A stretch of DNA of 64,000 nucleotides, from the IMG/VR virus record IMGVR_UViG_3300032038_000023. One strand, written 5' to 3'. The position numbers were made by a program, and so were the translations under genes. This document shows, piece by piece, positions 4,686 through 58,669 of the stretch. Position 1 is the stretch's first letter. Each line of letters starts with the position of its first letter. The notes below the pieces were generated by a model. The model was not told the DNA's origin, ran no database searches, and saw only the letters and a program-made list of their open reading frames with translations. Source of the stretch: an uncultured virus (IMG/VR IMGVR_UViG_3300032038_000023). Taxonomy: Duplodnaviria > Heunggongvirae > Uroviricota > Caudoviricetes.

Positions 4686-4801
4686 TATACGTTTACCAGA
4701 ACTCAGATCATTATTTAAAAACTGTAAACGAGATAGGGGAAGATACATCGGTCGTTTTTAAAACGTAAATTAAAATCTTCATATCATTAGTTACGACTAG
4801 T

Positions 4802-6010
4802 ATGATTAGTTAGAAGGTTAATGTAACCATTAATGATCTGAGTGATGGTAACGTATTGGTTGATGCTTTTAATAAATCAAAAATTGATAGTGATTGGAAG
4901 CAATCTGTATAGAAATTTGAAGCAAATCTTCTAATAAATATTTTAAATATACAGAAAGATCTTAGGAATGGTACTTATAAACAAAAACCATTTTACGAAT
5001 TTATACTTAATGAACGTGGAAAAACACGTTATATTAAATCACTTCATATTAGAGATCGAGTAGTACAAAGAGCGTTGTGTGACTGTGTTCTTACTCCATT
5101 AATACAAAATAAATTAATATATGATAATGGAGCAAGTGTTGTCAAAAAAGGCATTACTTTTTCTCGAAATCGTTTATAGACTCATTTAGAAAAGTTTATT
5201 CGAAAATATGGGACAGATGGTTATATATTATTAATTGATTTTTCTAAATTTTTTGATAATATACCACATGATCTTTTTCTTAAGTAGCTAAAACCGTTAA
5301 TTATAGACGAGCAAGTATATAAATTAATTGTAGATTTAGTCAATTCTTTTAAAATAGATGTTTCTTATTTAACAGAAGAAGAATATAATGATATATTAGA
5401 TTAGCCATTTAATATGTTAGAGCACAACGAAACACATCTTGGTGAAAAATATCTATACCGTTCAATGGGTATCGGCTCACAAATTTCTTAGTTAGCCGGT
5501 ATTTATTATTTAACGCCAATTGATAATTATTGTAAAATTAAAAAATAGTGTAAATATTATGGACGATATATGGATGATATATATATTATTTCTAATTCAA
5601 AAGAATTTTTATAGAATTTATTAATTGAAATAATTAATATATCTAAATAGTTAAAAATTTTTATTAATGTAAATAAAACATAGATAATTAAATTATCACA
5701 TGGTTTTACATATTTACAAATTAAATATAAAATCACAAAGACTGGGAAAATTATTAAAACATTATCCCCAAAAGCTATTACTAGATAGCGTAGACGAATT
5801 AAAAAATATAAAAATATGTTATTAAATAATAAATTATAGTATACTTTAATAGAAAATGCTTATAAATCTTGGCGTGGTAATGTAATTCATTATAAATGTT
5901 ATAATTCATTAACAAAAATAGATAATTTATATGTTAATTTATTTTCAGAATATATGTCTAAAGATTTAAAATAGACGATTAATAAATATTAGCATAGAAA
6001 AAATTTGTAA
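4802..6010 (+). CDS. DGR reverse transcriptase, 402 aa (code 15)
   Basis: RDRVVQ, DFSKFFDNI, GIGSQIS[TAG] (TAG 5489-5491), YMDD at 5567-5578; about 14 in-frame TAG; absent from the ORF track. Confidence 0.93.
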
Positions 6011-23072: not shown

Positions 23073-23337
23073 GCCTTTAGAAAGATAGACTGCTATGACT
23101 TTCTATCTTTGCGTTGAAGTAGCCTACCGGGTTAGCTTCGGTAGCCTGCGGAGCATGTCCAAGGTTTAGTAGTACCCATAGGCTAACTAGAGAAATCGAA
23201 AGAAAACTACTTGCGGGGTCGGCGCTAAAATGATCCCACCACCAGATTCGTAGTAACTGTGCCCGTGGCCAGGGCCGCGCTGAAAGATTTGGGAACTCTA
23301 GTAGGAATCCTACTACGAGTACGGGTTGTGCCGTACT

Positions 23338-26950: not shown

Positions 26951-28162
26951 ATGCTGAATGCGAAAGGTGAGCGCGAACTGGCGTACGTCGTAATTGTAGA
27001 TGGAATTGAGGAACTGCCGGGTTACGATCGAGTTGAGTCCGCGCGCATTGGCGGATGGCGTTGTATTGTGCCGAAAGGACAATTTAAAGTAGGAGACCCT
27101 GGGATTTATTTTGAGATTGATAGCCGCGTTCCGTCTGATCGTGAATGCTTTGCTTTCTTGGAGAAGCGGAACTATAAAGTAAAGACTCAGAAGATGTGTA
27201 AGTCTATCTCTCAGGGACTTCTTATGCACGCTGAAGATTTTGGATGGACTATCAATGAGTGGGGCGACGCGATTGTCGATGAAAATGGTGATCGTCATTA
27301 TTCTGTAGATGAATCTCGTTTCCTTACTCAGAAACTTGGTGTGACTTATGCAGATGACGAAGACAATAAGCGCAAGGCCCCTTCGTCTGATAAGTATAAG
27401 AAAATGGCTCAGCGTCATCCTGAAATTTTCCGTCAGAGCTGGGCGCGCTGGATGATGAAGCGCGACTGGGGCAAGAAGCTTATGTTTTTCTTCTTTGGTA
27501 AAGCAAAGGATAAGAAGAATGGCTGGCCTGCGTGGGTACAGAAAACTGATGAGGAACGTATCCAGAATATGCCTTGGATTCTTAATGATGAAGGTAAATG
27601 GATCGCAACTGAAAAGATTGATGGTAGTTCTACTACTTTTACTATGCGTCGTAAGCGTCGTAAGAAAGAGTTTTATGTGTGCTCCCGCAATGTGTGCTTT
27701 GACAGTGTAGATAAGCCGTGTTATTACGACACGAATATCTACTGGGAAATGGCGCAGAAGTACAATATGTATAATGTGCTGTCCGATATTCTCGATCATT
27801 TTCCCGAAGCAGAATGGGTAACTATCCAAGGCGAGACCTATGGTGAAGGTGTACAGAAGAGAGACTACTCTATTAAGGGTCATGACTTTAAGGCGTTTAA
27901 CCTTATTACTTCCAATAAAGGCCGCTGGAATAGTTGCGCGATGCAGAATCTGCTTGAGTACGGGTATAATGTACCTTGTGTTCCTATTATAGATCCGCAT
28001 TTTTACTTTAACGGCATGAATGTAGACCAGATCCTTGAGTATGCCGAAGGTAACTCCAAGGTTGATGGTAAGGCCCGCGAGGGGATTGTGTTTAGATCTG
28101 AAGACGGTACTCAGTCCTTTAAAGCGGTTAGTAATAGCTTTTTGGTGAAATATCATGGTTAA
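26951..28162 (+). CDS. RNA ligase (Rnl2/DRB0094-like)
   Basis: EKIDGSS, QGETYG, REGIV, SFKAVS; N-terminal OB-like part with SQGLL. Confidence 0.85.
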   Translation: MLNAKGERELAYVVIVDGIEELPGYDRVESARIGGWRCIVPKGQFKVGDPGIYFEIDSRVPSDRECFAFLEKRNYKVKTQKMCKSISQGLLMHAEDFGWTINEWGDAIVDENGDRHYSVDESRFLTQKLGVTYADDEDNKRKAPSSDKYKKMAQRHPEIFRQSWARWMMKRDWGKKLMFFFFGKAKDKKNGWPAWVQKTDEERIQNMPWILNDEGKWIATEKIDGSSTTFTMRRKRRKKEFYVCSRNVCFDSVDKPCYYDTNIYWEMAQKYNMYNVLSDILDHFPEAEWVTIQGETYGEGVQKRDYSIKGHDFKAFNLITSNKGRWNSCAMQNLLEYGYNVPCVPIIDPHFYFNGMNVDQILEYAEGNSKVDGKAREGIVFRSEDGTQSFKAVSNSFLVKYHG

Positions 28163-29095: not shown

Positions 29096-29611
29096 ATGAG
29101 CGATAAGACTTTATGGATCATGAGTGGGATTCCTGGCTGCGGGAAGTCCCACGTAGCGAAGAACGAACTTATGCATGGGAGTGGTTGGAGATATATTTCA
29201 CGGGATGAAATTCGTCTTAACTATCTCGATGAAAACGATGAACACTTCGCGCATGAAGGCGCGGTCTATGATGAATTTATCTATAGGATTCGTGAAGCAC
29301 TTAACTCCGAAGGCGTGTTTGATGTGATTGCAGATGCAACGCATCTGAATTGGGCTAGCCGCCGTAAACTTCTGACTGCGCTTGGACGCGAGATTGATCT
29401 GACGAAGATCAATATTGTGGCTGTTGTTGTGAAAGCTGATTATCGGACGTGTCTTATGCGGAATAAAGCACGTACTGGGCGCGCGTGCGTTCCGGAGAAT
29501 ATTATTAATAATATGTATAAACATTATCGCCATCCGAATAAAGATCCGTTTAACTATAATGGGATTATGGAGTGGGATAATGAGACTGAAGACTGGAGTG
29601 ATGTATCGTGA
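29096..29611 (+). CDS. Polynucleotide kinase-like (AAA_33)
   Basis: GIPGCGKS, SRDEIR, DAT, RNxxR. Confidence 0.8.
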   Translation: MSDKTLWIMSGIPGCGKSHVAKNELMHGSGWRYISRDEIRLNYLDENDEHFAHEGAVYDEFIYRIREALNSEGVFDVIADATHLNWASRRKLLTALGREIDLTKINIVAVVVKADYRTCLMRNKARTGRACVPENIINNMYKHYRHPNKDPFNYNGIMEWDNETEDWSDVS

Positions 29612-31819: not shown

Positions 31820-32325
31820 TAAGGTTGAGAGAGACGCGGAGTCATGACCGAAGAATTTTCAATCTGTACCGACAGAATTTACCAGATACCAAGGATCGTT
31901 AAATAGGAACTGGTTGACTTTTCAGATGGTATCTCATATACCGCAAGGGTTTCAACAAGAAAACTCAAGTTGATCTATGAGCGCGGCGATTCAGAGGATG
32001 TTCAGACAGCGAGAGTGTAGCATGAACAACTACGTGAAAGTTTCGCTTAACTGCTACCTCGGCAGGAATAAGCAATTTAGTTCTTACTTTAAGACTCTAT
32101 GGAGCTTAAAGATTAAATGATGTAGGATGTATGGGCCTACGGTCTGCCATAGACGATAAACTTGGCGGATGGGTAGCCAAGAATTAAAAGGTACTAAGAC
32201 AATAGGTGCGTAGAAAAGGAACACATTGAGGACCAACTCAACAGAGGACTTCGTTGTGACTCAGTACCAAGGTTGTGAAATCCTGATACGCTGCGCGTGA
32301 TTGAAACTGCACGCCCCATCCATTA
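31820..32325 (+). ncRNA. Large structured ncRNA candidate (ROOL-like by size and context)
   Basis: Own TTGCAA/TATAAT promoter; TTTCAATC 31857 pairs with GATTGAAA 32299; loop GGATGGG 32167 pairs with CCCATCC 32315; directly before a tRNA. Confidence 0.6.
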
Positions 32326-32330
32326 GATTT

Positions 32331-32406
32331 AGGAAGTTGAGTCAAATGGTTAGCCTAGAGGACTTATAATCCTCCTATCTGGGTTCAAGTCCCAGACTTC
32401 CTACCA
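32331..32406 (+). tRNA. tRNA-Ile (TAT)
   Basis: GAGGA-CTTATAA-TCCTC; acceptor AGGAAGT/ACTTCCT; CCA. Confidence 0.85.
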
Positions 32407-32428
32407 ATACCTTTCCATGCGAATTTTA

Positions 32429-32517
32429 AAGACGGTTACAGCAACTTTTTTATGGATTAAGGATAAATTCGTTATTTATATCGAGAAGGTTCAATTCCTT
32501 CAAATTTTCTCCGTCTT
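32429..32517 (+). ncRNA. ACAGCAA element E2 (anticodon-like CGT hairpin + T-arm)
   Basis: AAGACGG/CCGTCTT stem; ATAAA-TTCGTTA-TTTAT; GAAGG-TTCAATT-CCTTC. Confidence 0.65.
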
Positions 32518-32525
32518 GTTTTTAT

Positions 32526-32612
32526 GCGGGCGTGGCGGAATTGGCAGACGCATTGGACTTAAAATCCACTGGTCTTAAGGCCGTGTGGGTTCGAATCCCA
32601 CCGCCCGCACCA
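32526..32612 (+). tRNA. tRNA-Leu (TAA)
   Basis: Cloverleaf with long variable arm, CCA. Confidence 0.92.
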
Positions 32613-32613
32613 A

Positions 32614-32674
32614 TAGACTCATACAGCAAATATTCTTGGAATAGTCTGCTAAACTATAATTTAAAAAGAGTCTA
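32614..32674 (+). ncRNA. ACAGCAA element E3 (Ser-GCT anticodon hairpin)
   Basis: TAGACTC/GAGTCTA stem; ATAGT-CTGCTAA-ACTAT. Confidence 0.65.
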
Positions 32675-32686
32675 GTAATTAAATAT

Positions 32687-32772
32687 GGGTCGGTATTCCG
32701 TAGAAGGTAGCGGGGGAGTCTGTAAAACTCTTGGCTCAGCCTCGGTTGGTTCGATCCCAACCCGGCCCACCA
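32687..32772 (+). tRNA. tRNA-Tyr (GTA)
   Basis: GGAGT-CTGTAAA-ACTCT; CCA. Confidence 0.9.
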
Positions 32773-32812
32773 AAGCGGTTTATGCCTACAACCGCGAGGA
32801 TAATTGTTAATA

Positions 32813-32920
32813 AAGACAGATACAGCAATTTTTTTGAAATCATTTGAGTCTGCAAAACTTAGGGTCTGGGTTCGATTCCCAGCTTTGTGGTGTAATGGTA
32901 GCATTTTGATTTTCTGTCTT
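32813..32920 (+). ncRNA. ACAGCAA element E4 with circularly permuted tRNA-Cys-like module
   Basis: AAGACAGA/TCTGTCTT stem enclosing anticodon arm (GCA), T-arm, then D-arm. Confidence 0.7.
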
Positions 32921-32927
32921 GTAATAT

Positions 32928-33002
32928 TGCTCAGTAGCTCAGAGGCAGAGCGCGCGGCCGTTAACCGCGAGGTCGAGATATCGTAATTCTCCTGAGCAGC
33001 CA
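32928..33002 (+). tRNA. tRNA-Asn (GTT)
   Basis: CGCGG-CCGTTAA-CCGCG; atypical T loop; CCA. Confidence 0.85.
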
Positions 33003-33120
33003 ATGTAAGTGATTCTTAAATTATGCTTGAAAAGGATAGCCTCTCGCGGAACGATCTCTATGGTTGTTCCAACAGTAGCGGTGATGATGCCAAAGGCCAC
33101 GGTGCATATGCCGCCATTTT

Positions 33121-33196
33121 GCGCCTGTAGCTCAGTTGGTAGAGCAGAGCACTTTTAATGCTAAGGTCGGCAGTTCAAGTCTGCCTAGGCGCACCA
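33121..33196 (+). tRNA. tRNA-Lys (TTT)
   Basis: Canonical cloverleaf, CCA. Confidence 0.92.
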
Positions 33197-33393
33197 TTAT
33201 AAGTGTGTTTGTTAATGCCATAAGCATTTACTATCATAAACTGTAGTGCGGCTCAGTTCAAATCGACCGTTTCCACGGTGACAATTTACAACCGCTTAGG
33301 ATACAGATTAAAGATCACAGTCTTGTGTAAAATTCTTTAGTCGCTAGTTCGGAGGTTTCCAGTCCTCAATTTTGAATGAAGAAAAACTGGAGA

Positions 33394-33504
33394 AACTGCG
33401 TGGCGGAATAGGTAGACGCTTATAAGGTAAGGGCCGCTTGATCCGATACTTGCGCCGGTATATGGCCGGTTGCCCATGCAAGGTGCAAATCCTTGCCGCA
33501 GTTT
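33394..33504 (+). ncRNA. tRNA-like RNA with the anticodon arm replaced by a long stem
   Basis: AACTGCG/CGCAGTT acceptor, GGCGGAATAGGTAGACGC D-arm, CAAGG-TGCAAAT-CCTTG T-arm; no CCA. Confidence 0.65.
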
Positions 33505-33515
33505 TAAATATTAAT

Positions 33516-33602
33516 GCCAGTTTAGTGTAACGGTAACACAGCGGCCTTGAAAGCCGTCGGGTTTTATCACCCTTGCGGGTTCAAATCCTGCAGCTGGCGC
33601 CA
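33516..33602 (+). tRNA. tRNA-Ser (TGA)
   Basis: GCGGC-CTTGAAA-GCCGT, long variable arm, CCA. Confidence 0.88.
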
Positions 33603-33611
33603 TATAAATAA

Positions 33612-33686
33612 GCTGGTGTAGCACAAAGGTAGTGCAATCGCCTTGTAAGCGATAGGTTGTGGGTTCAACTCCCTCCGCTAGCTCCA
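33612..33686 (+). tRNA. tRNA-Thr (TGT)
   Basis: ATCGC-CTTGTAA-GCGAT; CCA. Confidence 0.9.
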
Positions 33687-33746
33687 TCATTTAAATTTTG
33701 ACTTTTGTAAAAATTTATGGTATAATAAATATACAAAATAAGATAT

Positions 33747-33821
33747 TGAGATGTAAGTCAGAGGAAGACGGCGACATTTGGGTTGTCGAAGCCGTGGGTT
33801 CGAATCCCGCCATCTCAGCCA
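33747..33821 (+). tRNA. tRNA-Pro (TGG)
   Basis: CGACA-TTTGGGT-TGTCG; CCA. Confidence 0.85.
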
Positions 33822-33824
33822 CAT

Positions 33825-33942
33825 AAGACGCAGACAGCAATTACATATATATTTAAGGAATTATTTATTTTACTTTCTTTCTTTTCTTTCCCCTCTTTAT
33901 GGTGTTATGCCGGCATATCCCTTTTAATTATTGATGCGTCTT
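33825..33942 (+). ncRNA. ACAGCAA element E5
   Basis: AAGACGCA/TGCGTCTT stem with pyrimidine-rich interior. Confidence 0.6.
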
Positions 33943-33957
33943 GGTTTTAAATTAATT

Positions 33958-34016
33958 TAGACACGAACAGCAAACTTTGGTACTGCTATTGGAGATAGGA
34001 ATAATACTTGTGTCTA
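33958..34016 (+). ncRNA. ACAGCAA element E6
   Basis: TAGACACG/TGTGTCTA stem; interior contains CTGCTA. Confidence 0.6.
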
Positions 34017-34274
34017 GTAACTAAATAGGTGAGTTATGGATAGGACATGTACTTATATTCCTGGTTGCACATATATCGTTTATGATAAAGAAACGTTTAA
34101 AGAAATGCTTGCAACTGGGAATTTTCATTGTATAGATATTACTTATGAATATAAATCGAAATGGCAATTTTGGAAGCGTAAGAAGATTGGGTACTATACA
34201 TTAATGTGTATTAAACTTTTACCAGCATTAACAACTGAAGACTGTAAAAAATTTAGCGGATTAGTATAATATAA

Positions 34275-34349
34275 ACCCGAGTAGTCTAACGGCTTGGATG
34301 TCAGGCTTTGAACCTGAAGGTGGACGGTCGGCACGTCCCTCGGGTGCCA
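34275..34349 (+). tRNA. tRNA-Gln (TTG)
   Basis: TCAGG-CTTTGAA-CCTGA; atypical T loop; CCA. Confidence 0.8.
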
Positions 34350-34378
34350 ATATGATTTCAATAAAGGAGAAGATAAGA

Positions 34379-35902
34379 ATGAATAAATTTATGAATGGGC
34401 TTAAAGAGACTGATAACTATACTCTTACCGAGAATGGTGCAGTTACTCATAAAAGTACGCTCAATGGTCTGCTTGATCTTTTTGGGCTTGGCGCGGCTTA
34501 CCGTACCAGAGATGACTCGGATTGTATCGTTCTTTTCCAGAAAGCTTGGAAGGAAGATCCGGTCTATGCGCTGAAGTGTCTGTTCTATTTGCGCGATGTG
34601 CGTGGTGGACAGGGCGAAAGACGTTTCTTCAGAGTTGTTTGCCATTGGCTGGCAGATAATGAGACCGAAGCAATGCGCCGCAATCTCGTGTATGTACCAG
34701 AGTTTGGACGTTGGGATGATCTCTATACGTTCGTTGGTACTAGACTGGAGAACGATGCGTTTAAGCTGATGCGCGATCAATTTGCGCTTGATTTAAGGTC
34801 TAAGACTCCTTCTTTGCTTGCAAAGTGGTTGAAGTCTGAGAATACTTCAAGTAAAGCCACCAAAGAGCTGGGTAAACTCACGCGCATATACTTTGGTCTT
34901 ACGCCTCGGTCGTATCGCAAAGGACTTAGTATCCTTCGTGAGCGGATCAATGTGGTGGAGCGGCTTATGTCTGCGGGTGAATGGGATAAGATCGAGTTTG
35001 ATAAGATCCCTTCGAAGGCTGGCTTCATCTATCGGAATGCGTTCGCGCGTCATGACATTGAGCGCATGAAGAACGATCCGAATGTGCGGTCGTATGAAGA
35101 CTTCATTCAGGACGAAGAGACTACGGTTAACGCCAAGGATCTCTATCCGTATGAAGTTGTGGCTAAGGCCTATGCTCTGACGAGTAGGGGTGGCTCTTGG
35201 TGGAACAAACCCACTATTAATGTTGATCCCACTGAGCGCGCGGCGATCAATAAGTACTGGGACAACCTTAAAGATTACTTTAATGGTTGTAGCCTTGATG
35301 CATTGTGTGTCATTGATACCAGTGGATCTATGTGGGGACCTAATGCAAGTGCACCTATTAATGTCGCAATCTCCATTGGACTTTACGCGGCAGAGCGTGC
35401 GCGCGGTCCGTTTGCTGGACACTATGTGTCTTTCTCTAGTCGTCCGCAGTTGATCGAGACGAATGGTGTGGATTTCGTTGATAAGGTGCGCCGCATCTAT
35501 GAAACGAATCTTTGCGAGAATACGAATATCGAAGCTACTTTTGATATGCTTCTCGACACCGCAATCCGTAATCGTTGTTCGCAGAAAGACCTTCCGAATA
35601 CCATTATCGTGGTAAGCGATATGGAGTTCGATAGTGCGCGCGATTACTGGGATCGTCACAACAACAATACTCTTATGGAGAATATCCGTAAGAAGTGGGA
35701 CGATGAAGGATATAGGATGCCAAATCTTGTATTCTGGAATGTCGAAGCGCGCCACGACAACATCCCCATGAGAGTGGAAAACGGCATCACCATGGTAAGT
35801 GGTTTTAGCCCTGTTCTCTTTGAGCAGATCATGAAGGGTCTTTCCGCAGAAGATCTGATGTATGACAAACTCAATAGCGAGCGTTACGCTTGCATTAAGT
35901 AA
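34379..35902 (+). CDS. DUF2828-family protein (TROVE/Ro60-like N-domain + vWA)
   Basis: TENGA, RDVRGGQGER, GRWDDL, AKWL; vWA MIDAS DTSGSM...T...SDMEFD; start at ATG 34379 after AAGGAG. Confidence 0.8.
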   Translation: MNKFMNGLKETDNYTLTENGAVTHKSTLNGLLDLFGLGAAYRTRDDSDCIVLFQKAWKEDPVYALKCLFYLRDVRGGQGERRFFRVVCHWLADNETEAMRRNLVYVPEFGRWDDLYTFVGTRLENDAFKLMRDQFALDLRSKTPSLLAKWLKSENTSSKATKELGKLTRIYFGLTPRSYRKGLSILRERINVVERLMSAGEWDKIEFDKIPSKAGFIYRNAFARHDIERMKNDPNVRSYEDFIQDEETTVNAKDLYPYEVVAKAYALTSRGGSWWNKPTINVDPTERAAINKYWDNLKDYFNGCSLDALCVIDTSGSMWGPNASAPINVAISIGLYAAERARGPFAGHYVSFSSRPQLIETNGVDFVDKVRRIYETNLCENTNIEATFDMLLDTAIRNRCSQKDLPNTIIVVSDMEFDSARDYWDRHNNNTLMENIRKKWDDEGYRMPNLVFWNVEARHDNIPMRVENGITMVSGFSPVLFEQIMKGLSAEDLMYDKLNSERYACIK

Positions 35903-41402: not shown

Positions 41403-42502
41403 ATGTTAGGACAATTAGTTGATGTTTGGTATCCTGGCCCAACAGAAGTCAGATTTAAAATTGATGGGACTAGTAATTTAGGAATTGCGTTTGAAGATCG
41501 TATAATTAACTTAGAGAATGGAGAAGTATTCCATATTCAAGATATACTTTATAGTGCGCTTGAAGCTGGAGAAGATCCAGATGATGTGATTGTAGAGTGG
41601 TGTGAGTGGATCCCCATAAAGGAACTTTAAATACTGGGGTGTAGCGTAACGGTAGCGCGGCGGTCTCTAAAACCGTTGTGAGTGGGTCCGAATCCCACCG
41701 CCCCCGCCATCCAATTAAAACTGATCGAAGGAGAAAGAATGAAGTACATTAGGTTTACTGGTTCAGCTGGATATGCTGGTACTGATTACGAAGAGTATGT
41801 AGCTTTTCCAGATGATGTAACTGAAAAAGAAATTGATGAGTATTCTTATGAGCAGGCCGCAGAAAACGCAGAAACTTTTGAGTATGTAGTGCGCGGTTTA
41901 GAAGAGTGGGAAGATGAAGATGATCGTACCACTTATTATGATAACGCAATGGATTATTGCTATTGGGAAGAAGTAACGAAGGAAGAGTATGAAGAAAATG
42001 AGTGAGTTTAAAAATTACAGATATGTAAAGCATGGAAATGAAGTAATTGCGATTAGTACATTCGCAGGCCGCACTGTAAAGGGAAAAGCTAAGTGTCATC
42101 CAAATGATACATTTGATTTCGAGTATGGATGTAAACTCGCGGCGGCCCGTTGTAACCAAAAGATTGCTTTCCTTAGATGGAAACGGGCGTGTAAAAAGTA
42201 TCTTGATGCCAAGGCCGCGAGACTACGTGTTCAACGTGAGTTTAACGATTGTTGTGATTATCTTACGAACTCGTGTAAACAGCTTGAGAAAGCGTATCTT
42301 GAAGTGGGGGAATTAGAAAATGACAGCTAAGAGACTTCGTGAACTTTTAGAGTATGCCTATGATGATGCGGTTGTCTATATAAGTCTTGAAGATGAAGAT
42401 GGAAATGCAATTGATAAGCTCGCTAAATCAGTGAGAACGGAAGTCTATGACATGGGAGAAGATATTCCAGATCTCATCTGTATGGTAATTTCAAACGTAT
42501 AA
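41403..42502 (+). CDS. Small TAG-free hypothetical genes around the suppressor tRNA (41403, 41739, 41998, 42320)
   Basis: RBS-supported ORFs after a TTGACT/TATAAT promoter (~41339-41368). Confidence 0.6.
41635..41709 (+). tRNA. Amber suppressor tRNA (CTA), Gln-type
   Basis: GCGGT-CTCTAAA-ACCGT, anticodon 41667-41669; U1 mismatch, G2-C71, G3-C70, G73; CCA. Confidence 0.93.
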
Positions 42503-57242: not shown

Positions 57243-57349
57243 AATTTGACATTCACTCCCATCTATGGTATACTATATATAGATGGGAGAAATTTATATG
57301 GAGAAACGTATGCGCCCTCCCGCATATCGTATACGTTTAACGTGTAACC

Positions 57350-58669
57350 TTGGCTTTTAATCGTTTAAAACTAGATTTTTCACTTGACTCTACGGAAGAA
57401 CGCTTAAACTTCGTTGAGTCTTATCTCCCTACAATTGATTTCGAACTAACACCCCATGAGTCCGAAACACTTTCGGACTATATTTTATGGGGCAAAAACT
57501 CCACTACTGGGCTGAACGCCCAACAAGAAGGTATCGTCAAACTCAAAGAATGGGCGCCCGCTCAAGTAGATTCTATTGAAGGTCTTATTGAAACTCCTGG
57601 CTTTCAAGAATCAAGACTTCAGCCACTTAACACGACCCATTACCACGTAAAACGTACAGTCTTTGACCGCAAAGAAGCACTTAAAAACGCGCCGCCGTAT
57701 TACCAAGATTTACTTTCTACTTTATTTAATGAAATAGATCATACGGAATTACTTATTAATTATTATGATTTACTTCATGGGAAACGAAAAACTCTTCCGC
57801 GCGCCTCGTTACTCGCGCGGTTTTCGTATGATGATTTGGAGAGTTTTAAGGAATAGGCGACGAAGTTAAATTAGAAGAAATATATATAGTTAAAACATTA
57901 TTTAGTTGAATTAAGAAACGAGCAATATACATATAAAGATTGTTTCTCTACTCCAGTTGCGCGGCACACCGAATCCCAGCAAGCTCAACTTGAACAAGAA
58001 ACGCCGCGCTTCGACTCAGATATAATGGTCTTTCCTTTCGGCCTCTTTAATAAGTCAGATCTCGCGCAAAAGATTTTTAAGTTCCCACCAGATCCTTCAA
58101 TCTTTAGTGAGTAGGATTTAGACTAGGTTAGTAAGTTAATTTGGAATAGAGAAAAGAAAGATAAGATTTTAGATTTTGAAAATGTGGATCATTTACTTGC
58201 GATTTATAAGAATTATTATATTCTTGAAGAGTAGAGTGAAAGAGATCCTAATGAATTTTATAGCGCGGCCGCGAGTATAGTTAGGACGCTTAAGTTTTAT
58301 GAATCCATGGCGGACTTGAGTGAGATTCAATAGGAAGTTCTTTAGATGAAGATTGATGAAAGGTCGAATTTAGTTATTTAGTTATATATAAATGGGAAGT
58401 ATGGAACTACGTATAATGAGAACTATATTTCTACGATTTATAGAAAAAAAATACTCCCCGCTATTGCGGGCGCGGCGACCCAACACAAACACATCATGGA
58501 GAATATATTCTATCCAGAGAATTTCAAAGTATGTAAAGACTGCGGCCGATTATTATTGATCTCTACTGACTTCTTTATGAAAGAAAAGAAAAACGTGACC
58601 GGATTCGCGCCACGGTGTAAGAGATGTTAGAAGTTAAAGAGATAGGAGAAGAAGAATGAAGAATACTGA
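57350..58669 (+). CDS. Hypothetical DNA-binding protein with HTH-like region and C-terminal Zn finger (code 15)
   Basis: Extends ORF 57350..57856; CKDC...CKRC. Confidence 0.65.

What the first reader, a model, noticed from the sequence alone, without database searches (positions are those of the whole stretch)
32813..32920. Circularly permuted, acceptor-less tRNA-Cys mimic
Seen: inside stems AAGACAGA/TCTGTCTT and AAATCA/TGATTT the order is anticodon arm (TGAGT-CTGCAAA-ACTTA), T-arm (CTGGG-TTCGATT-CCCAG), a 5-nt linker in place of the acceptor stem, then D-arm (TGGTGTAATGGTAGCAT). T-before-D order recalls YrlA, but YrlA lacks the anticodon arm, and here it is retained. Inference: an unchargeable tRNA-shaped decoy.
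Basis: partly seen in the sequence, partly recalled or inferred. Interest (0 to 1): 0.82.

Follow-up and report, generated by a model that had tools for sequence, protein, structure and literature searches.

The report
Acceptor-less tRNA mimic on ACAGCAA handle
A gut phage's tRNA gene array carries a small RNA gene shaped like a tRNA with its arms in swapped order and no amino-acid-accepting stem, clamped by a conserved stem that marks a widespread, undescribed viral RNA family found beside genes for a Ro60-like ring protein, so it is most likely that protein's partner RNA and not a working tRNA.

Summary
At 32813-32920 (+) an 8-bp outer stem and a 6-bp inner stem enclose, in this order, an anticodon-like hairpin, a canonical T arm, a 5-nt linker and a canonical U8-G9-D arm. 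No acceptor stem can form.

It is not a one-off remnant. A covariance model built from 22 relatives in other viral contigs, with the window left out, finds exactly 32813-32920 at 68.2 bits (E 1e-12). Family helices covary, and so does the tertiary 15:48 pair.

The defining part is the handle: (A/U)AG, a covarying stem, single-stranded (A/U)CAGCAA, and a 3' strand ending CUUG or CCUG. The window has five such units between its tRNA genes. The handle has the design of dictyostelid Class I RNAs but scores below Rfam's cut-off.

The gene 1.4 kb downstream (Pfam DUF2828+DUF7788) folds like Ro60. A homolog is present in 28 of 30 handle-bearing contigs and in 6 of 29 comparison contigs.

Best reading: a Y-RNA/YrlA-like, unchargeable tRNA mimic that docks on a Ro60-like protein. 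Binding is inferred, not shown. The Cys anticodon is not conserved in the nearest variants. The decoy function remains possible and untested.

This scan noted the same handle family earlier in giant-virus DNA.

The parts
32813..32820 (+). Handle, 5' strand of the terminal stem (AAGACAGA)
   Evidence: Pairs with 32913-32920. ViennaRNA pair probabilities are 0.79-1.0. The family stem covaries at positions 4-8.
32822..32828 (+). Conserved single-stranded motif ACAGCAA, directly 3' of the 5' strand after one U
   Evidence: CAGCAA is invariant in 23 of 23 aligned relatives. ACAGCAA occurs 126 times on the gene strand and 26 times on the other strand in the protein-anchored loci.
32829..32836 (+). 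U-rich spacer (TTTTTTTG); with 32821-32828 it forms a 16-nt one-sided bulge
   Evidence: Read from the sequence.
32837..32842 (+). Inner stem, 5' strand (AAATCA)
   Evidence: Pairs with 32907-32912. Pair probabilities are 0.71-0.86.
32845..32861 (+). Anticodon-like arm: TGAGT / CTGCAAA / ACTTA (5 bp, 7-nt loop, GCA at positions 34-36)
   Evidence: This helix has changes on both sides in 4 of 5 pairs across relatives. In variant contigs the stem is kept by compensatory changes while the loop drifts. ViennaRNA probability is about 0.
32862..32865 (+). Variable-loop equivalent GGGT; its last U is the partner of A15 (Levitt-type pair)
   Evidence: Positions 15 and 48 covary: A with U in 15 of 23 sequences, G with G in 5, other combinations in 3.
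32866..32882 (+). T arm CTGGG / TTCGATT / CCCAG
   Evidence: Matches the Rfam tRNA model consensus. Pair probabilities are 0.97-0.99. G32868A together with C32880T is a compensatory pair in one variant contig.
32883..32887 (+). 5-nt linker CTTTG in the place of the whole acceptor stem
   Evidence: Read from the sequence. The family model aligns it with 15 acceptor-hairpin positions deleted. L188, L189 and L203 have 3-nt linkers at the same place.
32888..32904 (+). U8-G9 plus D arm GTGT / AATGGTA / GCAT
   Evidence: TGGTGTA(A/G)TGGTAGCA was required by the search pattern that collected 21 of the 22 relatives, and L102 carries it too, so its invariance there says nothing. The window's copy was not selected by that pattern. 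ViennaRNA probability is about 0.01.
32907..32912 (+). Inner stem, 3' strand (TGATTT)
   Evidence: Pairs with 32837-32842.
32913..32921 (+). Handle, 3' strand TCTGTCTT plus the conserved unpaired G. tRNA-Asn begins 7 nt later, at 32928.
   Evidence: A CT(T/A)G tail is present in 49 of 104 distinct stem pairs; CCTG tails were also seen among the rest.
32429..32518 (+). Sister handle unit 1: AAGACGG..ACAGCAA..CCGTCTT-G. Its cargo includes a T arm, GAAGG-TTCAATT-CCTTC.
32614..32675 (+). Sister handle unit 2 (61 nt): TAGACTCAT-ACAGCAA...AAGAGTCTA-G. Its cargo is one anticodon-like hairpin, TAGT-CTGCTAA-ACTA.
   Evidence: One RNA-library contig with 17 differences spans 32542-32681 (record 19).
33824..33943 (+). 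Sister handle unit 3 (120 nt); cargo is not tRNA-like
   Evidence: An RNA-library contig covers 33837-34000 (record 24).
33958..34017 (+). Sister handle unit 4 (59 nt + G); cargo is not tRNA-like
34298..35902 (+). Gene for the Ro60-like ring protein (Pfam DUF2828 + DUF7788). The ORF's first ATG overlaps tRNA-Gln; homologs align from residue 28, at 34379.
   Evidence: Pfam E-values are 4e-29 and 6e-39; phrog_850 'RNA-binding protein' scores 5e-131. The AF2 model has pLDDT 78. All 11 Foldseek PDB hits listed above rank 13 are Ro60, Rsr or TROVE, with E from 8e-7 to 2e-5.

Best explanation
The stretch is a gene for a roughly 108-nt non-coding RNA. It belongs to an undescribed viral family that I call 'handle RNAs'.

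The family's constant part is a terminal clamp. It consists of (A/U)AG, 5-6 covarying base pairs, single-stranded (A/U)CAGCAA just after the 5' strand, and a 3' strand ending CU(U/A)G or CCUG. The variable part is the cargo held inside the clamp.

In this copy the cargo is a tRNA body entered at the junction of positions 26 and 27. The order is anticodon-like arm, 4-nt variable loop, T arm, a 5-nt linker where the acceptor stem should be, then U8-G9 and the D arm. It can form the tRNA elbow (T loop with D loop, and the 15:48 pair), but it has no acceptor end. It therefore cannot be charged or decode.

Inferred steps:
- The RNA is cut out of the tRNA-array transcript by the enzymes that mature the flanking tRNAs. 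RNase P at tRNA-Asn, 7 nt downstream, would set its 3' end.
- The handle docks on the Ro60-like ring protein encoded 1.4 kb downstream, as Y RNAs dock on Ro60.
- The tRNA-shaped cargo gives that particle an interface for tRNA-binding proteins. These could be host nucleases or modification enzymes, or the phage's own RNA ligase and kinase encoded about 4-6 kb upstream.

Shown: the structure, family membership, conservation and covariation, gene linkage, and the Ro60 fold of the protein. Inferred: expression, RNA ends, binding, and biological role.
For: (1) Family membership. Model R1, built without the window, hits 32813-32920 at 68.2 bits, E 1.1e-12.

(2) Structure conservation. On 23 sequences, 90.1% of cells pair against 75.5% in shuffles. 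The covariation score is 0.366 against 0.138, reached by 0 of 500 shuffles. The anticodon-like, T and acceptor helices all show changes on both sides. The tertiary 15:48 pair covaries, A:U in 15 and G:G in 5 of 23. Variant contigs show compensatory changes in the T stem and the anticodon-like stem of this very element.

(3) The handle.
- ACAGCAA occurs 126 times on the gene strand and 26 times on the other strand of the protein-anchored loci. Thirty permuted 7-mers average 35 occurrences.
- 60 of 126 ACAGCAA sites have a perfect 8-bp closure, against 105 of 1037 for the permuted words.
- Among 24 distinct stems with one internal mismatch, 10 are G.U and 2 are A.C, which points to pairing in the RNA of this strand.

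(4) Linkage to the Ro60-like gene.
- 38 of 41 loci fetched through the protein, with at least 2 kb upstream, carry a closed handle upstream on the gene strand. That is 99 units in 216 kb upstream against 9 in 261 kb downstream.
- Of 30 contigs chosen only by an RNA pattern, 28 encode a homolog, including 7 of 7 contigs at least 90% complete. Of 29 comparison contigs, 6 do (Fisher p 7.5e-9).
- 4 of 5 unexpected positives in the comparison set had a closed [AT]CAGCAA unit on the gene strand near the gene. In 3 of them the unit ends with the family's CT(T/A)G or CCTG tail.
- 19 of 238 short loci showed the gene's start, or in one case its end, within 400 nt of the RNA.

(5) The protein folds like Ro60. 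All 11 Foldseek PDB hits listed above rank 13 are Ro60, Rsr or TROVE, including a phage Ro60.

(6) Precedent. YrlA Y RNAs lie within 4 kb of Ro60, on the same strand, in 254 bacteria and 22 phages, and they mimic tRNA (PMC4201824, passages read). The Ro60 of Thermus phage phiLo binds two phage Y-like RNAs (PMC12135203, passages read).

(7) Tie to tRNA processing. 29 of 66 distinct units abut a tRNA within 15 nt on at least one side.
Against: - There is no direct evidence of transcription for this unit. The one clear RNA library laid had no contig over 32797-32867, and contigs cannot show RNA ends.
- No binding evidence exists; linkage is genomic only.
- Both the handle units and the gene sit in or beside tRNA arrays. 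Part of the linkage could reflect a shared lineage of phages rather than function, since the 30 contigs are not phylogenetically independent.
- The handle lacks the GNCGAA/CGAA motif that Ro60 contacts in known Y RNAs.
- Pfam does not call a TROVE domain in the protein. A profile search of PDB sequences found nothing relevant.
- Dictyostelid Class I RNAs, which share the handle design, are reported to bind an RRM protein, Rnp1A, not Ro60 (PMC7919456, passages read).
- Nearest-neighbour folding disfavours the anticodon-like and D hairpins by 8 kcal/mol.
- The D arm and part of the T arm were fixed by my search pattern, so their invariance among relatives carries no weight.
Confidence: 0.6

Rival explanations
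1. Decoy or bait for host tRNA-targeting nucleases. The tRNA-shaped, unchargeable RNA soaks up or mis-directs anticodon nucleases that the host uses against phage, with or without the Ro60-like protein. This can coexist with the best explanation as the role of the cargo.
For: An anticodon-like 7-nt loop with U33 is present. On the sister scaffold, C32-U33 and A37-A38 stay fixed while positions 34-36 differ among copies (ACG, GAA, GUA, GGA, GCA), as if the triplet were what is selected. The phage carries an RNA ligase (26951-28162) and a polynucleotide-kinase-like gene (29096-29611), the classic tRNA-repair pair, within 6 kb. It also carries its own tRNA array.
Against: In the two nearest variant contigs the loop has a pyrimidine at position 37, and in one an A at position 32, so the canonical loop frame is not kept in this lineage. 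Only 21 of 81 distinct handle units near the protein gene have a T-loop motif at all. So most family members are not tRNA-like, and a decoy role cannot explain the family. No nuclease target is known for this host.
Confidence: 0.17
2. A circularly permuted tRNA gene whose transcript is rearranged (cut at the clamp, ligated, opened at the acceptor end) into a working tRNA-Cys, as in red and green algae and Thermofilum.
For: The 3' part of the tRNA body precedes the 5' part. The flanks pair like the leader-trailer helix of permuted pre-tRNAs. A phage RNA ligase and kinase are encoded nearby. Some relatives do carry a 7-bp acceptor hairpin whose loop reads N-CCA, for example the Tyr-like L015 3491-3626 with ACCA and L037 4112-4230 with GCCA. 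No other tRNA-Cys is called in the window.
Against: This copy has 5 nt where 14 acceptor nucleotides plus a discriminator are needed, so no mature tRNA can be made from it. There is no bulge-helix-bulge motif: the clamp is 8 + 6 bp with a 16-nt bulge on one side only. The anticodon is not kept in near relatives. In the sister group the acceptor hairpin is sealed by a conserved loop, UUGGUC, without CCA.
Confidence: 0.03
3. A decaying or rearranged tRNA remnant with no function of its own, kept only because tRNA arrays of phages turn over quickly.
For: Arrays differ greatly even between phages whose Ro60-like proteins are 74-76% identical. L008 and L300 have other units at the matching places. 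The loop of the anticodon-like hairpin drifts. The window holds another uncalled tRNA-like stretch at 33395-33501. This copy lacks the acceptor hairpin that most relatives have.
Against: The acceptor-less layout recurs in three other viral contigs with different stems (L188, L189, L203). The stems of this element are kept by compensatory changes in variants. The family-wide covariation and the 68-bit match are hard to square with decay.
Confidence: 0.12
4. A DNA-level element. The inverted repeats would be recombination or cassette boundaries that shuffle tRNA-like modules within arrays, not an RNA structure.
For: Units bracket cargoes of very different content and order. Arrays are mosaic.
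Against: Strand bias is strong, 126 against 26. G.U outnumbers A.C 10 to 2 in stems. The single-stranded motif is conserved on one side only. Relatives give full-length sub-threshold matches to an expressed RNA family, RF01414. No recombinase is linked.
Confidence: 0.05

Closest known systems
YrlA-type bacterial and phage Y RNAs (Rfam RF02553; Chen et al. 2014, PMC4201824; phiLo Yrl1/Yrl2, PMC12135203)
   Same: The 5' and 3' ends pair in a terminal stem. Inside, the T arm precedes the D arm, giving a tRNA-like elbow that cannot be charged. The gene lies within 4 kb of, and on the same strand as, a gene for a Ro60-fold ring protein. Several copies per genome are known in both cases.
   Different: The RF02553 score is 16.4 bits against a cut-off of 69, and that alignment borrows the D arm of the next tRNA. 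There is no GNCGAA/CGAA motif; the conserved motif is ACAGCAA. An anticodon-like arm is present. The 'AS' hairpin between T and D is absent. The protein is Pfam DUF2828+DUF7788, not a recognised TROVE domain. The gene is embedded in a tRNA array.
Class I RNAs of dictyostelid social amoebae (Rfam RF01414; Kjellin et al. 2021, PMC7919456)
   Same: The clamp has the same design. The Rfam consensus reads a 6-bp terminal stem starting with G, then CUUACAGCAA, a variable middle, and a 3' strand followed by UG. The paper gives the start as AAG and the end as CUGU, with a covarying stem (passages read). Sister units in the window are 59-61 nt, within the Class I size range.
   Different: No RF01414 match at E up to 10 was found in the stretches searched. 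The best viral relative scores 31.6 bits against a cut-off of 41.5, and 0 of 20 contigs pass the cut-off. This unit is 108 nt and has a tRNA-like cargo. Class I RNAs have a DUSE promoter, are reported only from Dictyostelia, and bind the RRM protein Rnp1A.
Circularly permuted tRNA genes of Cyanidioschyzon merolae, other algae and Thermofilum pendens (recalled; no paper on them was read here)
   Same: The 3' part of the tRNA lies upstream of the 5' part. The flanking sequences pair with each other.
   Different: Those genes keep both acceptor strands and mature into working tRNAs through a bulge-helix-bulge cut and a circular intermediate. Here there is no acceptor stem, no bulge-helix-bulge motif and no splicing endonuclease context.
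Two-piece (permuted) tmRNA (Rfam RF04321 tmRNA_permuted)
   Same: A bacterial or phage-world RNA whose tRNA-like domain is encoded in permuted order.
   Different: tmRNA keeps an acceptor stem and is charged. The only RF04321 match in the array scores 13.1 bits at 32585-32717, E 8, and is not at this element.

Membership tests
Viral ACAGCAA-handle RNAs with permuted tRNA-like cargo (unnamed; defined here by model R1) | Significant end-to-end match to a covariance model built from other members | tested here: met
   R1 was built from 22 relatives with the window left out. It matches 32813-32920 at 68.2 bits, E 1.1e-12, over model positions 1-116. Caveat: at lower scores R1 also picks up pairs of ordinary adjacent tRNAs, for example L338 at 35.7 bits.
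Viral ACAGCAA-handle RNAs with permuted tRNA-like cargo (unnamed; defined here by model R1) | Terminal stem with (A/U)AG start, (A/U)CAGCAA after the 5' strand, and a CU(U/A)G or CCUG end | tested here: met
   AAGACAGA-U-ACAGCAA ... UCUGUCUU-G.
YrlA (RF02553) | Rfam gathering score of 69 bits | tested here: not met
   16.4 bits at 32862-32951. The alignment uses the D arm of tRNA-Asn.
YrlA (RF02553) | GNCGAAN0-1G motif near the 5' end (the Ro60 contact; PMC4201824) | tested here: not met
   Read from the sequence: the only CGA in 32813-32920 is in the T loop.
YrlA (RF02553) | tRNA-like domain with T arm before D arm inside a stem formed by the two ends | tested here: met
   The stem-loop between T and D ('AS') is missing.
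YrlA (RF02553) | Encoded within about 4 kb of a Ro60 (TROVE) gene, on the same strand | tested here: inconclusive
   The gene at 34298-35902 is on the same strand, 1.4 kb away, and has the Ro60 fold by Foldseek. Pfam reports DUF2828 and DUF7788, not TROVE.
YrlA (RF02553) | Bound by Ro60/Rsr in cells | not testable with these tools
   Needs immunoprecipitation or a gel-shift assay.
Dicty_Class_I_RNA (RF01414) | Rfam gathering score of 41.5 bits | tested here: not met
   No match at E up to 10 in 32200-34500, 32780-32960 or 33815-34025. Relatives in other contigs reach 31.6 bits at best, and 0 of 20 contigs pass the cut-off.
Dicty_Class_I_RNA (RF01414) | Short stem joining the ends, with the conserved motif (consensus CUUACAGCAA) next to its 5' strand | tested here: met
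   The consensus was seen. The window has the stem, then U, then ACAGCAA.
Dicty_Class_I_RNA (RF01414) | Length of 42-65 nt and a DUSE promoter about 60 nt upstream (PMC7919456) | tested here: not met
   This unit is 108 nt. DUSE was not searched for, because it is a eukaryotic promoter element.
tRNA (RF00005) | Rfam gathering score of 29 bits, or an ARAGORN call | tested here: not met
   22.9 bits, reading AATAAAG/CTTTGTG as an acceptor with 24 unaligned nt in place of a D arm. ARAGORN makes no call.
tRNA (RF00005) | 7-bp acceptor stem with a free 3' end | tested here: not met
   Five nucleotides, CTTTG, join the T arm to U8.
Permuted tRNA genes (algal and archaeal type) | Both acceptor strands present, and a bulge-helix-bulge motif at the junction of the flanks | tested here: not met
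   Read from the sequence: there are no acceptor strands. The clamp is 8 + 6 bp with a 16-nt bulge on the 5' side only.

The most novel reading that the evidence does not exclude
The ACAGCAA handle is the docking site of a second, so far unrecognised branch of Ro60-like ring proteins (DUF2828/DUF7788). Together they form a widespread viral ribonucleoprotein. Its interchangeable cargoes include tRNA bodies entered at four different points, of which this acceptor-less one is the most stripped-down. These cargoes aim the particle at host or phage tRNA-handling enzymes during the conflict over tRNA cleavage and repair. The same handle in dictyostelid Class I RNAs would then be homologous rather than convergent, which would link an amoebal developmental RNA class to a viral RNP.
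Probability: 0.25. Interest if true: 0.85.

Novelty: new variant of a known kind. Interest (0 to 1): 0.7.

Why it matters
Y RNAs and Ro60 are known from animals, about 5% of bacteria and a few phages, and what the tRNA-like module of bacterial Y RNAs does is still open.

Here a different protein family with the Ro60 fold is tied, across many uncultured phages, to a different and very simple RNA handle. The handle carries cargoes that range from nothing tRNA-like to complete permuted tRNA bodies. That gives a natural series of variants for asking what the tRNA mimicry is for: with or without an acceptor hairpin, with or without an anticodon arm, and with different triplets in the loop. It also assigns a likely role to two Pfam domains of unknown function.

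The handle also extends the design of dictyostelid Class I RNAs beyond amoebae. The literature I read says this design is found nowhere else (PMC7919456).

Searches of the held library found no paper describing this family: 'DUF2828'; 'YrlA' with 'phage' and 'tRNA-like'; 'permuted tRNA' with 'phage'; 'Ro60' with 'phage', 'Y RNA' and 'tRNA-like'; and 'Class I RNA' with 'Dictyostelium' and 'CIBP'. Subscription-only papers and bioRxiv supplements were not visible.

Tried and rejected
- An IUPAC pattern taken from the window's T-to-D junction found 0 matches in viral contigs. The spacing was too specific; a looser pattern worked.
- blastn of the element against the 49 protein-anchored loci gave only short tRNA-like matches. 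Homology is visible only through structure.
- blastn of the whole array against named phages gave only tRNA matches, with no record covering 80%.
- No whole genome is held for the window.
- Expression: the clear RNA library (X18) has no contig over 32797-32867 and depth 0.4 over 32868-32938. Only assembled contigs were laid. So nothing can be said about expression, ends or circular forms of this unit. The listed joints have short sides and look like other organisms' tRNAs.
- A profile search of PDB sequences with the protein alignment found nothing useful, only 1mjh at E 0.5. Only the fold comparison showed the Ro60 likeness.
- The protein atlas returned only DUF2828 clusters, mostly viral.
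- My comparison set was not clean. L227 and L176 carry handle units and should not have been in it, and L200 was not held. I kept the counts as they came out.
- The automatic count of anticodon-like hairpins also picked up T loops, seen as the triplets CGA and CAA. Those rows must be discounted.
- A full-text search for 'ACAGCAA' returned 13,217 papers, essentially primer lists.
- The idea that the clamp is a known self-cleaving ribozyme or another Rfam family was rejected. No family reaches its cut-off at any handle unit, and the E-value scans list only chance-level matches.
Full report
**Where it lies.** The window looks like part of a large tailed phage of animal-gut microbes.
- No host genome is held for it.
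- ARAGORN finds nine tRNA genes on the + strand between 32331 and 34349, and a CUA-anticodon suppressor tRNA at 41635.
- Pieces of the array occur in bovine and sheep gut metagenome runs. One DNA contig is identical over 32741-32886.
- The closest relatives of the neighbouring protein sit on rumen MAG contigs.
- The finding lies between tRNA-Tyr, which ends at 32772, and tRNA-Asn, which starts at 32928.

**The observation.**
- outer stem 32813-32820 / 32913-32920 (8 bp)
- a one-sided 16-nt bulge that contains ACAGCAA (32822-32828)
- inner stem 32837-32842 / 32907-32912 (6 bp)
- a 5-bp hairpin with the 7-nt loop CUGCAAA (32845-32861)
- GGGU
- a T arm with the canonical loop UUCGAUU (32866-32882)
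- the 5-nt linker CUUUG
- U8-G9 and a D arm with A14, G18-G19 and A21 (32888-32904)

No acceptor stem can be formed. ARAGORN does not call it. The Rfam tRNA model gives 22.9 bits, below the cut-off of 29. It gets that score by reading AAUAAAG/CUUUGUG as an acceptor stem and leaving 24 nt unaligned where the D arm should be. The YrlA model gives 16.4 bits against a cut-off of 69, and only by borrowing the D arm of tRNA-Asn.

Energy-based folding is not persuasive on its own. The z-score is -1.70, and 14 of 200 shuffles fold as well. The opposite strand gives z -1.40. The outer, inner and T helices have probabilities of 0.71-1.0. The anticodon-like and D hairpins have about 0, because an extended alternative helix is 8 kcal/mol better.

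**It is one member of a family.** Reading the spacers of this array and of 49 loci fetched through the downstream protein showed the same clamp again and again. It consists of (A/U)AG, a few covarying pairs, then (A/U)CAGCAA, a cargo, then the complementary strand ending CU(U/A)G or CCUG.

The window has five such units: 32429-32518, 32614-32675, the finding itself, 33824-33943 and 33958-34017.

In the protein-anchored loci, ACAGCAA occurs 126 times on the gene strand and 26 times on the other. Thirty permuted 7-mers average 35 occurrences. 60 of 126 ACAGCAA sites have a perfect 8-bp closure within 320 nt, against 105 of 1037 for the permuted words.

Among stems with the CU(U/A)G tail, positions 4-8 take three to five pair types each. 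My finder required pairing, so the closure rate, and not that table, is the real test.

Where a stem has a single internal mismatch, it is G.U in 10, A.C in 2 and another combination in 12 of 24 cases. That fits pairing in the RNA of this strand.

29 of 66 distinct units lie within 15 nt of a tRNA gene on at least one side. So the enzymes that mature tRNAs would also free these RNAs. That step is inferred.

**Cargoes.** The clamp holds very different contents:
- nothing tRNA-like
- a single anticodon-like hairpin
- canonical order, with a D-loop-like segment, an anticodon arm and a T arm, and the clamp in the acceptor position
- a YrlA-like layout, with a hairpin, a T arm, an acceptor hairpin whose loop often reads G-CCA, U-A and a D arm
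- bodies entered after the anticodon arm (L008 2077-2203, L300 179-281)
- bodies entered at the 26/27 junction, as here

Of 81 distinct units near the protein gene, 21 have a T-loop motif. The hairpin count in that call also picked up T loops and should be discounted.

**Relatives of this layout.** A pattern joining a T loop to the D-arm word TGGTGTA(A/G)TGGTAGCA found 120 places, or 98 distinct sequences, in viral contigs. Most are ordinary neighbouring tRNAs. About two dozen are clamped, permuted bodies.

One tight group comprises L102, L172, L178, L182, L187, L210, L212, L215, L225, L245, L256, L263, L264 and L277. It has the window's order of arms plus a 7-bp acceptor hairpin, which covaries and is sealed by the conserved loop UUGGUC. 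Its anticodon stem is constant (UCUUU/AAAGA). C32-U33 and A37-A38 are also constant, while positions 34-36 read ACG, GAA, GUA, GGA or GCA.

Three contigs (L188, L189, L203) lack the acceptor hairpin as the window does, with 3-nt linkers. So the acceptor-less form recurs.

**Covariation on the alignment.** On the alignment of 23 such sequences, 90.1% of cells pair against 75.5% in shuffles. 13 of 21 pairs change on both sides. The covariation score is 0.366 against 0.138, reached by 0 of 500 shuffles. Sliding the partners by 1-3 columns drops pairing to 46-59%.

The D stem and two T-stem pairs were fixed by the search pattern and carry no weight.

The nucleotide before the T stem covaries with D-loop position 15: A with U in 15, G with G in 5, and other combinations in 3 of 23. 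This is the behaviour expected of the tRNA 15:48 tertiary pair. The tRNA rule itself is recalled knowledge, not a tool result.

**Independent test.** A covariance model built from the 22 relatives without the window finds 32813-32920 at 68.2 bits, E 1.1e-12, full length, with the acceptor positions deleted. The same model finds further units beside homologs of the protein on MAG contigs, for example L341 at 53.8 bits and L300 at 40.9 bits. At lower scores it also picks up pairs of ordinary tRNAs such as L338.

**Near variants of this very element.** Two assembled contigs from other runs span it at 85% likeness or more (records 12 and 28).
- One has G32868A together with C32880U, a compensatory change in the T stem. 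In the anticodon-like hairpin it has changes plus a one-base shift that keep five pairs.
- The other turns the G.U pair at 32846 into A-U.
- Both change the loop, to AUUCAUA and CUGUUCA.

So the hairpin is kept, but the Cys triplet and the purine at position 37 are not.

**The neighbouring protein.** The ORF at 34298-35902 matches phrog_850 'RNA-binding protein' (5e-131) and Pfam DUF7788 and DUF2828. Homologs align from residue 28.

An AlphaFold2 model made from 19 homologs has mean pLDDT 78.2 and pTM 0.77. All 11 Foldseek PDB hits listed above rank 13 are Ro60, Rsr or TROVE structures, with E from 8e-7 to 2e-5 and TM 0.43-0.51 over the full length. They include the Ro60 of Thermus phage phiLo. 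Isolated vWA domains follow. Sequence profiles alone do not see this relationship.

**Linkage of the RNA and the protein.**
- 38 of 41 protein-anchored loci with at least 2 kb upstream have a closed handle unit upstream on the gene strand. That is 99 units in 216 kb upstream against 9 in 261 kb downstream.
- Conversely, of 30 contigs of 60 kb or more chosen only because an RNA pattern had found a handle unit in them, 28 encode a homolog. This includes 7 of 7 contigs at least 90% complete. The two misses are 67% and 39% complete.
- Of 29 comparison contigs from the T-D pattern search, 6 encode one (Fisher p 7.5e-9). I had wrongly included L227 and L176, which carry handle units, in that set.
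- 4 of the other 5 positives had a closed [AT]CAGCAA unit on the gene strand near the gene, upstream within about 1 kb in each. In 3 of them the unit ends with the family's CT(T/A)G or CCTG tail.
- In 19 of 238 short loci the gene lies within 400 nt of the RNA. In 18 it is the gene's start, and in one (L052) its end.
- The contigs are related to one another to an unknown degree, so these counts overstate independence.

**Comparison with known systems.**
- YrlA. These RNAs lie within 4 kb of Ro60 on the same strand in 254 bacteria and 22 phages. They carry a GNCGAAN0-1G motif and mimic the T arm, D arm and acceptor stem. The M. smegmatis RNA is cut by RNase P and receives CCA (PMC4201824, passages read). 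Phage phiLo Ro60 binds two Y-like RNAs found through a CGAA motif, and assembles with host PNPase (PMC12135203, passages read). A survey of jumbo phages notes a TROVE protein in a few phages, beside RNA ligases and kinases, as part of RNA repair (PMC7824862, passage read). The present RNA shares the layout and the gene neighbourhood, but not the motif, the Rfam model or the Pfam family.
- Class I RNAs. The clamp matches the design of dictyostelid Class I RNAs instead. The paper describes a 6-bp covarying stem joining the ends, an 11-nt motif next to the 5' strand, a start AAG and an end CUGU, and says no such RNA was found outside Dictyostelia (PMC7919456, passages read). The Rfam consensus printed reads stem, then CUUACAGCAA, a variable middle, then stem and UG.
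- RF01414 scores. The model gives full-length but sub-threshold hits in 14 of 20 handle-bearing contigs at E up to 1. The best is 31.6 bits, and 0 of 20 pass the 41.5-bit cut-off. 7 of 14 control genomes also have hits at E up to 1. Two of the viral hits lie 25 nt upstream of the Ro60-like gene. The window itself gives no RF01414 match.
- Verdict on Class I. It works like, or is built like, a Class I clamp, but membership is not met.

**What it most likely is.** It is a Y-RNA-like partner RNA of a Ro60-fold protein. Its cargo is a tRNA body stripped of its acceptor stem.
- Shown: the structure, conservation, family membership, gene linkage and protein fold.
- Inferred: transcription, ends, binding and role.

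It gains a little from the variable triplets on a fixed loop frame in the sister group, and from the RNA ligase (26951-28162) and kinase (29096-29611) nearby. It loses from the drifting loop in the nearest variants, and from the many family members that are not tRNA-like.

A working permuted tRNA is excluded for this copy by the missing acceptor strands. It stays open for relatives with N-CCA in a 7-bp acceptor hairpin.

**Earlier notes of this scan.** Four notes on other genomes, all giant viruses, describe the same ACAGCAA stem. One reads it as a Y-RNA-like mimic next to Ro60-like genes in phages. Two liken it to Class I RNAs. One describes a clamped permuted tRNA-Leu. I had reached the Ro60 reading before seeing them. 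The Class I lead came from them, and I checked it myself.

Noticed in passing
window 4769-6007 (+) and 41635-41709 (+): TAG appears to be read as an amino acid in part of this phage. A frame with 14 in-frame TAG codons gives a full-length reverse transcriptase (phrog_1423, E 2.9e-66) when TAG is read as Q. A frame at 57341-58666 with 11 TAGs then matches a sigma factor (E 5.7e-12). A suppressor tRNA with anticodon CUA lies at 41635-41709. The RT region is also the lowest-GC part of the window, at 0.245.
   Followed up: partly
window 23109-23215 (+): A drum RNA (Rfam RF02958) scores 64.4 bits, above its cut-off of 43.
   Followed up: no
window 33395-33501 (+): A tRNA-like stretch is called by neither ARAGORN nor Rfam. 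It has a 7-bp acceptor AACTGCG/CGCAGTT, a Leu-like D arm and a T arm with the odd loop TGCAAAT, but about 55 nt of non-canonical sequence lie between them. Contigs of other organisms match only its two ends.
   Followed up: no
L178, L182, L187, L212, L215, L245, L256, L263, L264, L277, L172, L210, L225, L102 (coordinates): One clamped, permuted tRNA-like scaffold occurs with five different triplets at the anticodon position (ACG, GAA, GUA, GGA, GCA), on a constant stem and loop frame. Its acceptor hairpin covaries and is sealed by the conserved loop UUGGUC.
   Followed up: partly
L015 3491-3626 (also L004, L010, L040); L037 4112-4230; L013 3702-3821; L026 1922-2040: Clamped permuted tRNA bodies have acceptor hairpin loops that begin N-CCA. 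The Tyr-like one has anticodon GUA, a long variable arm and ACCA. These could be opened by RNase P into two-piece, possibly chargeable molecules, which is worth testing for true permuted tRNA genes in phages.
   Followed up: partly
G028:C1:59887-59938 and G029:C1:76919-76970: Sub-threshold but full-length matches to the Dictyostelium Class I RNA model (20.6 bits each) lie 25 nt upstream of the start of the Ro60-like gene in two viral contigs.
   Followed up: partly
window 26951-28162 (+) and 29096-29611 (+): An RNA ligase (PF09414 with a PHA02142 OB fold) and a polynucleotide-kinase-like P-loop protein, a tRNA-repair type pair, lie a few kb upstream of the tRNA array.
   Followed up: no
L299-L342: Homologs of the Ro60-like protein sit on contigs binned into MAGs of many unrelated taxa, including Clostridia, Bacteroidales, Mollicutes, Methanobrevibacter and Heimdallarchaeota. 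Several of these contigs are 130-176 kb long and are probably phage contigs mis-binned with cellular genomes.
   Followed up: no
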